Source: Escherichia coli O157:H7 (GTDB lineage: Bacteria > Pseudomonadota > Gammaproteobacteria > Enterobacterales > Enterobacteriaceae). Taken from it: DNA of 64,000 bases. Within the stretch, counting starts at the first letter, position 1. Every line of letters starts with the position of its first letter. The position numbers were made by a program. Shown here in pieces: positions 18,001-21,000 of this stretch. The stretch lies in the NCBI RefSeq assembly GCF_013167455.1, contig NZ_CP038328.1; one strand, written 5' to 3'.

Positions 18001-21000
18001 CGAAACGCACTGCCGGACAGACAAATGAACTTATCCCTACGACGCTCTACCAGCGCCCTTCTTGCCTCGTCGTTGTTATTAACCATCGGACGCGGCGCCA
18101 CGCTGCCATTTATGACCATTTACTTGAGTCGCCAGTACAGCCTGAGTGTCGATCTAATCGGTTATGCGATGACAATTGCGCTCACTATTGGCGTCGTTTT
18201 TAGCCTCGGTTTTGGTATCCTGGCGGATAAGTTCGACAAGAAACGCTATATGTTACTGGCAATTACCGCCTTCGCCAGCGGTTTTATTGCCATTCCTTTA
18301 GTGAATAACGTGACGCTGGTGGTGCTCTTTTTTGCCCTCATTAACTGCGCCTATTCCGTTTTTGCTACCGTGCTGAAAGCCTGGTTTGCCGACAATCTTT
18401 CATCCACCAGCAAAACGAAGATCTTCTCGATCAACTACACCATGCTCAATATTGGCTGGACCGTCGGCCCGCCACTCGGCACGCTGTTGGTCATGCAGAG
18501 CATCAATCTGCCCTTTTGGCTGGCCGCTATCTGCTCTGCGTTTCCCATGTTTTTCATTCAAATTTGGGTAAAGCGCAGCGAGAAAATCATCGCCACGGAA
18601 ACAGGCAGTGTCTGGTCGCCGAAAGTTTTATTACAAGATAAGGCACTGTTGTGGTTTACCTGCTCTGGCTTTCTGGCTTCTTTTGTTAGTGGCGCATTTG
18701 CTTCATGCATTTCACAATATGTGATGGTGATTGCTGATGGTGATTTTGCCGAAAAGGTGGTCGCGGTTGTTCTTCCAGTGAATGCTGCCATGGTGGTTAC
18801 GTTGCAATATTCCGTGGGCCGCCGCCTTAACCCGGCTAACATCCGCGCGCTGATGACAGCAGGCACCCTCTGTTTCGTCATCGGTCTGATCGGTTTTATT
18901 TTTTCCGGCAACAGCCTGCTATTGTGGGGTATGTCAGCTGCGGTATTTACTGTCGGTGAAATAATTTATGCGCCGGGCGAGTATATGTTGATTGACCATA
19001 TTGCGCCGCCAGGAATGAAAGCCAGCTATTTTTCCGCCCAGTCATTAGGCTGGTTGGGCGCAGCGGTAAATCCATTAGTGAGTGGTGTTGTACTTACCAC
19101 TCTCCCGTCGTCTTCGCTGTTTATCATTCTGGCGTTAGTCATCATTGCCGCGTGGGCGCTGATGTTAAAAGGTATTAACGCCAGACCCCAGAGGCAACCA
19201 GCACTCTGTTGACGTTCGTGCCGTTCCACTACTGGCACGGCTTCGCTAATCATTATTCTGAGGCAAAGGCATAGCCTTCATCTTCCCAGCCGGTTATCCC
19301 GCCGAGCATGATTTTAACCGGCTTTCCGAGTCGAGCCAGTTTGAGTGCCGCACGGTCTGCACCGTTACAATGTGGCCCCGCGCAATACACCACAAATAGC
19401 GTATCGTCGGGCCATTCGGCCATTCTTTCTGCGGTCATTTGCTTATGGGGTAAATGGAGAGCGCCTGGGATATGCCGACGCGCGAAGTCCTCTTCACGTC
19501 CAACCACATGAAGTAAAACGAAATCATCGCCAATATAAGCCAGAGAGTCATGAACATCGGCGCAATCTGTTTCGACACTCAAGCGCGCGAGAAAATGCGC
19601 CTCAGCAACTTCTGGCTTCGCTGTGGTAAATTCAGTGACATAACGCATATTGCTTTGTCCTTTTGGTTTGTTGTGTTAACAATAATGTAACTAATCTACC
19701 TTTCACTGACCGCCTCTCGATATGCCAGAAATGAGCAAAATGATGACAACGTTACAACGTCCGCTGGTCATTGCACTGGCATATGACGGGCTATGTACTT
19801 TTGAATTTGGCGTTGCCGTTGAAATATTCGGCCTGCCACGACCGGAACTGGGCGATAACTGGTATCGTTTTGCTGTTGCTGCGGTAGAACCAGGTGCGCT
19901 ACAAGCCACCGGGGGGATCCACGTGGTTGCTGATGGTGGACTGGAGTTATTGCCCAACGCCGATATGATTATTATTCCTGGCTGGCGCGGAATAGATGCC
20001 AAAGTGCCGGAGATGCTATGCCAGTCATTGCGCGAGGCACACCAGCGCGGTACTCGCCTGGTATCAATATGCTCTGGCGTGTTTGTCCTTGCTGCTGCGG
20101 GCCTTCTTCATCAGCGAAAAGCAACCACCCACTGGCGCTACACTGAACAACTCCAGCACCGTTACCCTTCAATCAGCGTAAGTGACAATGTGTTATATCA
20201 GGATGAAGGACAAGTGATGACCTCCGCCGGAAGCGCCGCGGGGATCGATCTGTGTTTACATATCGTGCGCAAAGATTTTGGTCATGAGATTGCTAATAAT
20301 GTCGCCCGGCGACTGGTCATTCAGCCACATCGCCAGGGGGATCAACCACAAAATCTGACGCGCCCAATGGCCTCACCGCGTGAAAGCCAGACGTTAGGTG
20401 CCTTATTCGACTTTTTGCAGCAGAATCTGGCACAAACACATACTGTGTCTTCCCTCGCCGAACGGGTAAATATGAGTCCGCGCACTTTTTTAAGACGTTT
20501 TGAGGCGTTAACTGGCATGACGCCCGCCCGCTGGCTGCTCAATGAGCGCTTAATACGAGTACAGGATTATCTGCAAAATTCGGTTTTTAACATCGAGAAA
20601 ATTGCCGAGCTGACGGGTTTTGGCAATTCAGCGTTATTGCGTCATCACTTTCACCAACGTTTTTTATTATCTCCTTCGCAATATCGCAAAAACAGCCGTT
20701 CCCCATCACAATAATCGCCTGATTCAGCCTTTGTTTAGATAACCTCTGCTAATATCTTTCTCATTGAGATAAAAATTAAGGTAAGCGAGGAAACACACCA
20801 CACCATAAACGGAGGCAAATAATGCTGGGTAATATGAATGTTTTTATGGCCATACTGGGAATAATTTTATTTTCTGGTTTTCTGGCCGCGTATTTCAGCC
20901 ACAAATGGGATGACTAATGAACGGAGATAATCCCTCACCTAACCGGCCCCTTGTTACAGTTGTGTACAAGGGGCCTGATTTTTATGACGGCGAAAAAAAA

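What the first reader, a model, noticed from the sequence alone, without database searches (positions are those of the whole stretch)
19253..20714. Two-gene accessory islet (rhodanese + GlxA-like regulator) between ydeE and mgtS
Seen in sequence: a 131-aa rhodanese-domain gene is divergent from a 330-aa DJ-1/PfpI + AraC-HTH regulator gene. Recalled K-12 map: ydeE is directly followed by mgtS/mgrR/dgcZ, so this pair would be strain-variable cargo. Inference: possibly a regulator/effector pair for sulfur or electrophile stress.
Basis: partly seen in the sequence, partly recalled or inferred. Interest (0 to 1): 0.35.

Follow-up and report, generated by a model that had tools for sequence, protein, structure and literature searches.

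The report
Ancestral rhodanese–FtrA gene pair, lost in K-12
The two genes are real, but they are an old, widely conserved regulator-plus-sulfurtransferase pair that about 93% of E. coli have deleted, and that O157:H7 carries in a version closest to other Escherichia species; what the pair senses is unknown.

Summary
A 131-aa rhodanese gene (19253-19648, minus strand) lies divergent from a DJ-1/PfpI + AraC regulator gene (19743-20714; 323 aa is more likely than 330), between ydeE and mgtS. The window is E. coli O157:H7, and the pair is the catalogued O-island 59 (Z2164).

It is strain-variable. The pair is in 381 of 5426 complete E. coli genomes, and 5028 carry a K-12-type junction without it.

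It is not inserted cargo. The pair sits at the same site in E. ruysiae, E. whittamii and Escherichia sp. E4385. Comparable synteny occurs in Phytobacter, Pseudescherichia, Kluyvera and Pseudocitrobacter. There are no mobility genes, boundary repeats or GC shift. K-12 keeps the last 9 nt of ftrA, so its state is a deletion. The O157 copy sits in a sharply bounded tract of about 1.8 kb that resembles E4385/whittamii, so homologous exchange between Escherichia lineages is involved.

The pairing is deeply conserved. In 76 of 80 loci from Alpha- and Gammaproteobacteria an FtrA homologue lies next to the rhodanese, and the pair also occurs in Betaproteobacteria. The short spacer carries a conserved TGKCA-N16-TGKCA repeat.

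The most likely mechanism is that FtrA, a GATR-type activator, controls the rhodanese gene. This is an inference, and the signal is unknown. Interest is modest.

The parts
18025..19212 (+). ydeE (MFS efflux transporter), the left flank. From about 19000 its 3' end belongs to the same E4385/whittamii-like tract as the pair.
19217..19239 (.). Inverted repeat CGTGCC-N11-GGCACG between the convergent ydeE and rhodanese genes. It may be a shared terminator (inferred). It is conserved in the other Escherichia species and missing in K-12.
19253..19648 (-). Single-domain rhodanese gene, 131 aa. Cys29 (ETDCxDV), Cys89 and Cys94 (YCAGPHCNGA) are invariant.
19649..19742 (.). Divergent intergenic region of 94 bp. 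It has no consensus sigma-70 promoter. Its length is conserved among orthologous loci, mostly 85-140 bp.
19673..19689 (-). Box conserved among enteric loci, read in the rhodanese sense as TACATT-ATT-GTTAACAC. TACATT is a candidate -10 element for the rhodanese promoter (inferred).
19723..19748 (-). Candidate FtrA operator, TGTCAT-N15-TGGCA (TGKCA-N16-TGKCA, half-sites 21 bp apart). The half-site on the ftrA side overlaps the ftrA start codon.
19743..20714 (+). ftrA: DJ-1/PfpI-like sensor domain (residues 1-196), a disordered linker, and an AraC-type HTH (residues 215-319). Cys110 and Glu21 are invariant. The alternative upstream ATG is at 19722.
20706..20721 (.). Right edge of the segment missing in K-12. 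K-12 keeps ACACAATAA, which corresponds to the last 9 nt of ftrA including its stop codon. Full homology resumes at 20722.
20822..20917 (+). mgtS, the right flank. Its upstream region is intact in both the pair-bearing and the deleted haplotypes.

Best explanation
This is an ancient, self-contained two-gene module. FtrA is an AraC-type regulator with a DJ-1/isocyanide-hydratase-like sensor domain, which places it in the 'GATR' class. It is proposed to bind a conserved pair of TGKCA half-sites, spaced 21 bp apart, in the roughly 95-bp spacer. From there it would activate the divergently transcribed rhodanese gene and probably also control its own gene, in response to a still unknown small molecule. 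The rhodanese is a cysteine-based sulfur-transfer or redox protein with an unusual C-x4-C active-site loop.

Shown here: the domain identities, the conserved adjacency, the purifying selection, the conserved spacer motif, and the evolutionary history. That history is that the pair is ancestral at the ydeE-mgtS site in Escherichia and related enterics. About 93% of E. coli carry a junction without it, consistent with one shared deletion allele. The O157:H7/O55:H7 allele lies in a roughly 1.8-kb tract that is most similar to E. whittamii and Escherichia sp. E4385, which implies homologous exchange between lineages.

Inferred only: that FtrA binds this motif, that it activates the rhodanese gene, and what the signal is.
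For: Domains: Pfam and NCBIfam. FtrA scores 557 bits against the NF006902 equivalog, whose cut-off is 425. The AF2 models are confident, and their nearest folds are BH2092 for the rhodanese (TM 0.87) and isocyanide hydratase, 3er6, 3gra and DJ-1 for FtrA.

Pairing: an FtrA homologue lies next to the rhodanese in 76 of 80 loci found by searching with the rhodanese alone, and in 73 of them it is directly divergent. The other neighbouring genes are not conserved across classes. The pair is also present in Burkholderia, Comamonas, Pantoea and Vibrio.

Spacer: TG[GT]CA-N16-TG[GT]CA occurs in 54 of 74 loci at a fixed distance from the rhodanese ATG, against 0.035 expected in shuffles. No consensus sigma-70 promoter is found.

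Selection: dN/dS is 0.04-0.16 for both genes. Z2164 is expressed and RpoS-dependent in EDL933 (PMC2907692).

History: the same synteny in E. ruysiae, E4385 and E. whittamii and in other genera; the remnant of the ftrA end in K-12; 5028 versus 381 genomes; the mosaic SNP pattern and low dS to E4385/whittamii.

Precedent: characterised GATRs are DNA-bound, ligand-dependent activators; in the case read here (CahR) the regulon is small and the target gene lies close by (10.1101/2021.11.02.466972).
Against: There is no experimental evidence for DNA binding, regulation or enzyme activity in any organism; seven usable literature searches found no study of this pair. One half-site overlaps the ftrA start codon, so part of the motif's conservation could reflect coding or translation signals. 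The loci are related sequences, so the shuffle control overstates significance. In three enteric loci another gene sits between the two, and in three loci the rhodanese occurs without ftrA (L013, L041, L073). Known GATR ligands are amine compounds, and their targets are catabolic genes, not rhodaneses. The direction of exchange between E. coli and the E4385/whittamii lineage is not resolved.
Confidence: 0.6

Rival explanations
1. The pair is an O157-specific, horizontally acquired genomic islet. This is the classical 'O-island' view: foreign cargo inserted between ydeE and mgtS.
For: The pair is absent from K-12 and from about 93% of complete E. coli genomes, and it is listed as O-island 59. 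The O157 allele is closer to E4385/whittamii than its flanks are, so DNA did move between lineages.
Against: The site and gene order are the same in three other Escherichia species and several enteric genera. There are no integrase, IS, tRNA or boundary repeats, and GC content (0.44-0.55) is like the flanks. K-12 keeps the last 9 nt of ftrA. All 381 E. coli copies are chromosomal. Homologues occur in only 16 of 72,556 plasmid records, 15 of them non-mobilizable and most of them very large replicons.
Confidence: 0.07
2. The rhodanese is not just a regulated effector but a signalling partner of FtrA. It would pass or remove a persulfide (or another cysteine modification) on the DJ-1-like Cys110 of FtrA, so that the two proteins together form the sensor.
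For: The rhodanese is unusually conserved for a small protein: mean column identity is 76% and it is 62-78% identical between classes, more than FtrA at 52-70%. It has three invariant cysteines, and FtrA has an invariant Cys110/Glu21 dyad. The pair is the only conserved unit.
Against: There is no evidence of any interaction. A conserved nucleophile-elbow cysteine is described as frequent among GATRs, which bind ordinary ligands. The rhodanese occurs alone in three loci. No complex prediction was possible with these tools.
Confidence: 0.15
3. The two genes are unrelated neighbours, and FtrA regulates genes elsewhere.
For: No regulatory experiment exists. In three enteric loci a phosphorylase-family gene separates them.
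Against: Adjacency and divergent orientation, with a spacer mostly 85-140 bp long, are kept across Alpha-, Beta- and Gammaproteobacteria while all other neighbours change.
Confidence: 0.08
4. The pair is a decaying remnant in O157 with no current function.
For: Most E. coli have lost it. O157 strain ATCC 43889 has an independent deletion that removes ydeE, the rhodanese gene and the 5' part of ftrA.
Against: Both ORFs are intact and 100% identical across every O157:H7 genome in an evenly spaced sample of the hit list. dN/dS is 0.04-0.16. Z2164 transcript is detected and RpoS-dependent.
Confidence: 0.05

Closest known systems
GATR regulators (GATase1/DJ-1-domain AraC-family regulators: GbdR, CdhR, SouR, SphR, CahR of Pseudomonas; COG4977 GlxA)
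   Same: The two-domain architecture is the same: an N-terminal DJ-1/PfpI-like domain with a conserved nucleophile-elbow cysteine and a C-terminal AraC HTH. The regulator is likewise encoded beside its likely target. The expected mode of action is a DNA-bound, ligand-dependent activator with a small regulon.
   Different: Known GATRs sense amine compounds and control catabolic genes. Here the conserved partner is a small rhodanese, and no ligand is known. By sequence, the sensor domain is closer to isocyanide hydratase (E 1e-17) than to the solved GATR N-domains 3er6 (4e-10) and 3gra (4e-5).
BH2092 of Bacillus halodurans (PDB 3nhv, 3o3w), a structural-genomics rhodanese
   Same: It is the best sequence match (E 1e-17) and the best fold match (TM 0.87, 32% identity). 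It shares the N-terminal helix (LSxETD) and the YCxGPxCNGA loop with both cysteines.
   Different: BH2092 has no assigned function. It lacks the third invariant cysteine, having Ile at the Cys29 position. Its gene context was not examined.
E. coli single-domain sulfurtransferases GlpE, PspE and YgaP
   Same: They share the rhodanese fold with a catalytic cysteine at the start of the active-site loop.
   Different: Sequence identity is low (18-25%). Their loops (CYHGNS, CNAGRQ and CQAGKR, quoted from general knowledge) have no second cysteine. They lack the N-terminal extension and are not paired with an AraC regulator.
Isocyanide hydratase InhA (DJ-1 superfamily, Pseudomonas fluorescens)
   Same: It is the best solved-structure sequence match to the FtrA sensor domain. 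The catalytic Cys101 aligns with FtrA Cys110 (SVCTG versus SICSG), and the surrounding GAAGLL helix is conserved.
   Different: FtrA is fused to a DNA-binding domain, so it probably uses the pocket for sensing rather than catalysis. The equivalence of Glu21 to the enzyme's Asp17 is my own hand alignment and was not tested.
O-island 59 of E. coli O157:H7 EDL933
   Same: It is the same DNA. Z2164 is the ftrA gene.
   Different: The 'island' label implies acquisition by O157. The comparisons here indicate an ancestral locus that was deleted in most E. coli.

Membership tests
FtrA (NCBIfam NF006902 equivalog) | Full-length score above the curated cut-off (425 bits) | tested here: met
   557.3 bits, covering model positions 3-324 of 327
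GATR / GlxA-type AraC regulators | N-terminal DJ-1/PfpI (GATase1-like) domain | tested here: met
   Pfam PF01965, E 3.4e-18. The AF2 model matches 3er6 and 3gra with target-normalised TM about 0.85.
GATR / GlxA-type AraC regulators | C-terminal AraC-type double HTH | tested here: met
   PF12833 E 2.3e-19 and PF00165 E 2e-12. Also matches the AdpA DNA-binding domain, E 1e-16.
GATR / GlxA-type AraC regulators | Conserved cysteine at the nucleophile elbow | tested here: met
   Cys110 is present in 70 of 70 orthologues and invariant in alignment A5
GATR / GlxA-type AraC regulators | Ligand-dependent activation of an adjacent operon | not testable with these tools
   Only conserved adjacency and a conserved spacer motif are available
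GATR / GlxA-type AraC regulators | Ligand is an amine compound and the target is a catabolic gene | tested here: inconclusive
   The conserved neighbour is a rhodanese, not an amine-catabolic gene. The ligand is unknown.
Rhodanese-domain sulfurtransferases | Rhodanese homology domain fold | tested here: met
   PF00581 at 44 bits against a cut-off of 22. AF2 pLDDT is 92, and the model matches BH2092, GlpE and YgaP.
Rhodanese-domain sulfurtransferases | Catalytic cysteine at the start of the active-site loop | tested here: met
   Cys89 in YCAGPHC is invariant in 44 sequences and aligns with the loop cysteine of BH2092
Rhodanese-domain sulfurtransferases | Thiosulfate:cyanide or other sulfur-transfer activity | not testable with these tools
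   This needs an enzyme assay
rhodanese_LYCAU (NF041203) | Score above the curated cut-off (115 bits) | tested here: not met
   26 bits
Horizontally acquired genomic island | Mobility genes, a tRNA or att-type target, and flanking direct repeats | tested here: not met
   No such ORFs and no repeats at the boundaries
Horizontally acquired genomic island | Atypical base composition | tested here: not met
   GC is 0.44-0.55 across the pair, against 0.49-0.52 in ydeE
Horizontally acquired genomic island | Absent from the same site in sister species | tested here: not met
   Present at the same site in E. ruysiae, E4385 and E. whittamii and in other enteric genera

The most novel reading that the evidence does not exclude
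FtrA and its rhodanese form a two-protein thiol-based sensor. The rhodanese would load or unload a persulfide (or a related modification) on the DJ-1-like Cys110 of FtrA. This would give the GATR class a covalent, sulfur- or cyanide/isonitrile-linked signalling mode that has not been described for it.
Probability: 0.12. Interest if true: 0.6.

Novelty: new member of a known kind. Interest (0 to 1): 0.3.

Why it matters
The result corrects how this 'O-island' should be read: it is a locus that most E. coli lost, not one that O157 gained, and it shows small-scale mosaic exchange between E. coli and other Escherichia species next to the mar locus. It also flags a conserved and completely unstudied regulator-rhodanese module found in many plant-, soil- and gut-associated Proteobacteria. 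The module is compact: one regulator, one 95-bp control region and one 131-aa target. That makes it an easy system for asking what a GATR sensor domain with an intact Cys/Glu dyad detects. For O157 biology the practical value is limited to a lineage marker and a possible niche-specific stress function.

Tried and rejected
- Literature: seven usable searches (FtrA, Z2163-Z2165, OI-59, ECs numbers, rhodanese + AraC, FtrA + meliloti) found no functional study. They gave only the RpoS microarray row, a marker paper, use of ftrA as a qPCR reference gene, and a moderately acid-sensitive transposon mutant in a gene annotated FtrA in Rhizobium tropici, whose orthology was not checked. One further search failed on term syntax.
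- Sigma-54 promoter reading of the TGGCA motif: rejected by eye, because the -12 GC is not present in either the alpha or the enteric version.
- Motif scan of the window for further FtrA sites: the only match is the site itself, with 0.87 expected by chance, so it says nothing about a regulon.
- FtrA protein search: it returned only close enteric relatives. It therefore could not show how many FtrA-family genes lack a rhodanese neighbour.
- Neighbourhood clustering: a MetE-like (Meth_synt_2) gene follows the rhodanese, but only in Enterobacteriaceae, and a GNAT gene follows it in some alphas. Neither is conserved across classes, so neither was used as functional evidence.
- Plasmid search: almost no hits. 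The phage collection was not searched.
- Distances between Cys29, Cys89 and Cys94 could not be measured, because model coordinates are not exposed.

Full report
**Observation.** The ORF list shows a 131-aa ORF at 19253-19648 on the minus strand and a 330-aa ORF at 19722-20714 on the plus strand. They lie between ydeE (18025-19212) and mgtS (starting at 20822). Further right are an sRNA (Rfam STnc560, 20911-21124, minus strand) and dgcZ. Pfam assigns a Rhodanese domain to the first ORF, and DJ-1_PfpI plus AraC-type HTH domains to the second. NCBIfam places the second in the FtrA equivalog, at 557 bits against a cut-off of 425. The window is 100% identical to E. coli O157:H7 genomes, where RefSeq calls the genes 'rhodanese-like domain-containing protein' and 'ftrA', the latter as 323 aa starting at 19743. 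Orthologue comparison favours this shorter form: the ATG at 19722 is CTG in several enteric loci, while the ATG at 19743 is conserved.

**Already catalogued.** The regulator is Z2164 of strain EDL933. A published RpoS microarray lists Z2164 as 'O-Island 59, putative regulator', about six-fold higher in wild type than in an rpoS mutant (PMC2907692). Another paper uses a stretch inside ftrA as an EHEC marker (PMC10002601). Seven usable literature searches found no functional study of FtrA or of this rhodanese.

**Distribution in E. coli.**
- The 1.5-kb segment is present in 381 of 5426 complete genomes. It is always chromosomal and always in one copy.
- 320 copies are at least 99% identical to the window. 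These are O157:H7, O55:H7 and a few other strains.
- 58 copies are a divergent allele of about 83.6% identity at the same site.
- A 100-nt probe spanning the K-12 ydeE-mgtS junction is found nearly full length in 5028 genomes. This is consistent with one shared pair-less junction, though sharing of the exact breakpoint was not checked genome by genome.

**Deletion, not insertion.**
- The gene order marRAB-eamA-ydeE-rhodanese-ftrA-mgtS-dgcZ is found in E. ruysiae, Escherichia sp. E4385 and E. whittamii.
- The order marA-eamA-ydeE-(0-2 genes)-rhodanese-ftrA, followed by mgtS where mgtS is detectable, is found in Phytobacter, Pseudescherichia vulneris, Kluyvera, Pseudocitrobacter and several Enterobacter-like genomes.
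- There is no integrase, IS element or tRNA, no repeat at the boundaries and no GC shift.
- In K-12 the ydeE stop codon is followed by 10 unalignable bases and then ACACAATAA, which matches the last 9 nt of ftrA including its stop. Full homology resumes at window position 20722.
- The K-12 state is therefore a deletion from just after ydeE to just inside the 3' end of ftrA. It leaves the mgtS upstream region intact.
- O157 strain ATCC 43889 has an independent deletion that removes ydeE, the rhodanese gene and the 5' two-thirds of ftrA, so the locus is prone to loss.

**Mosaic origin of the O157 allele.**
- By region, the O157 rhodanese and ftrA are 95.6-97.7% identical to E4385 and 93.9-96.3% to E. 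whittamii. Flanking genes (marRAB, the ydeE 5' part, dgcZ) are only 84-92% identical to those species but 97-99% identical to K-12.
- I examined sites that distinguish K-12 from E4385/whittamii. O157 is K-12-like except in three blocks: about 16750-17800 (the marB end and eamA), 18400-18600, and 19000-20800 (the ydeE 3' end, the pair, and about 80 nt beyond).
- Synonymous divergence between O157 and E4385 is 0.09-0.18 in the pair, against 0.55 for K-12 versus E4385 in ydeE.
- This indicates homologous exchange between the phylogroup-E lineage and an E4385/whittamii-like lineage. The direction of exchange is not resolved.
- The second E. coli allele is more diverged: dS is 0.66-0.86 from the O157 allele and 0.43-0.58 from E. 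ruysiae.

**The genes are functional.** Both ORFs are intact in all lineages examined, and dN/dS is 0.04-0.16.

**The pair is a deeply conserved module.**
- The rhodanese has thousands of homologues and is 72-79% identical even in Ensifer and Radicibacter.
- A scan of one genome per species, using the rhodanese alone as query, returned 80 loci from Enterobacterales, Hyphomicrobiales, Caulobacterales and Rhodospirillales.
- An FtrA homologue (41-70% identity; 52-70% in all loci but one) lies next to the rhodanese in 76 of these loci. It is directly divergent in 73, and in 3 one phosphorylase-family gene intervenes.
- One of the other four loci is cut by a contig end. The remaining three have the rhodanese alone.
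- No other neighbour is conserved across classes. A MetE-like gene follows only in Enterobacteriaceae, and a GNAT gene follows in a few alphas.
- The pair also occurs in Burkholderia, Comamonas, Pantoea and Vibrio.
- Homologues are found in only 16 of 72,556 plasmid records, 15 of them non-mobilizable and most of them very large replicons.

**Control region.**
- The spacer length is conserved, mostly 85-140 bp.
- An alignment of 75 spacers shows that the best-conserved columns form TGKCA-N16-TGKCA on the ftrA side.
- The pattern is present in 54 of 74 loci, most often 90-110 nt upstream of the rhodanese ATG, against 0.035 expected in shuffles. In the window it lies at 19723-19748.
- A 21-bp spacing between half-sites is typical of AraC-family dimers (general knowledge). 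The site lies upstream of a candidate -10 element (TACATT, 19689-19684).
- No consensus sigma-70 promoter is found, which fits dependence on an activator.
- Three caveats apply. One half-site overlaps the ftrA start codon. The loci are related sequences, so they are not independent observations. Within the window alone the motif is no more frequent than chance.

**Proteins.**
- The rhodanese model is confident (pLDDT 92). Its nearest solved structure is BH2092, a protein of unknown function, at TM 0.87.
- In 44 orthologues Cys29, Cys89 and Cys94 are invariant, within ETDCxDV and YCAGPHCNGA. Cys89 is the canonical catalytic position, and a second cysteine closes the loop.
- FtrA has a DJ-1-like domain (residues 1-196), a disordered linker, and the HTH domain.
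- The best solved sequence match of the FtrA sensor domain is isocyanide hydratase, with the catalytic cysteine aligned to Cys110. Cys110 and Glu21 are invariant in the orthologues.
- Characterised relatives, the GATRs, are DNA-bound, ligand-dependent activators. In the case read here (CahR) the regulon is small and the target gene lies close by. Known ligands are amine compounds.

**Verdict.** The most likely reading is a regulator-target module in which FtrA controls the rhodanese gene, and probably its own gene, in response to an unknown signal. A thiol, sulfur or electrophile signal is plausible but untested. A partner-sensor model, in which the rhodanese modifies FtrA, cannot be excluded. 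Interest is modest: the locus is already annotated and catalogued, and the new content is its evolutionary reinterpretation and the recognition of a widespread, unstudied GATR-rhodanese module.

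Noticed in passing
window 16750-17800 (marB 3' end and eamA) and 18400-18600 (inside ydeE): The O157 eamA is only 88.5% identical to K-12 but 95.7% identical to Escherichia sp. E4385. Two further E4385/whittamii-like patches lie beside the mar locus, so the whole 4-kb region is a recombination mosaic.
   Followed up: partly
L090 (E. coli O157:H7 ATCC 43889, NZ_CP015853.1 614891-623361): An independent deletion joins eamA directly to the 3' third of ftrA. It removes ydeE, the rhodanese gene and the 5' part of ftrA.
   Followed up: partly
L002:1-1300 (E. coli UID2309220009): In this strain, which carries the divergent allele, the position occupied by marRAB in O157 and K-12 holds a PTS IIB gene and a GntR regulator gene, and no marA homologue was detected within the fetched stretch. 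Whether mar lies elsewhere in that genome, and whether other strains with this allele share the feature, was not checked.
   Followed up: no
L004-L035, several Enterobacteriaceae loci, about 6500-12390: In many Enterobacteriaceae a cobalamin-independent methionine-synthase-like gene (Meth_synt_2) follows the rhodanese. In many of these it is followed by a four-gene cluster that looks like a urea-type ABC transporter; that identification is by eye only. O157 lacks these genes.
   Followed up: partly
L013 (Enterobacter sp. BIGb0383) 5650-6400: The rhodanese is retained but ftrA is missing, with mgtS directly adjacent. This is a natural 'regulator-less' variant that could be informative.
   Followed up: no
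L086 and L088 (Escherichia sp. E4385, E. whittamii): ydeI and ydeJ are absent, and dgcZ is followed directly by dcp.
   Followed up: no
L087 (GCA_004745385.1): ftrA, ydeE and eamA are each split into two ORFs in this assembly, but they are intact in a read-based assembly with the same rhodanese protein (L086). These are probably assembly errors.
   Followed up: no
window 20911-21124, minus strand: A strong Rfam match to STnc560 (282 bits) lies on the strand opposite the 3' end of mgtS and mgtT.
   Followed up: no
PMC5936775 (Rhizobium tropici CIAT 899, RTCIAT899_RS09190): A transposon mutant in a gene annotated FtrA was moderately acid-sensitive. Orthology to this FtrA, and the presence of a rhodanese neighbour, were not checked.
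   Followed up: no
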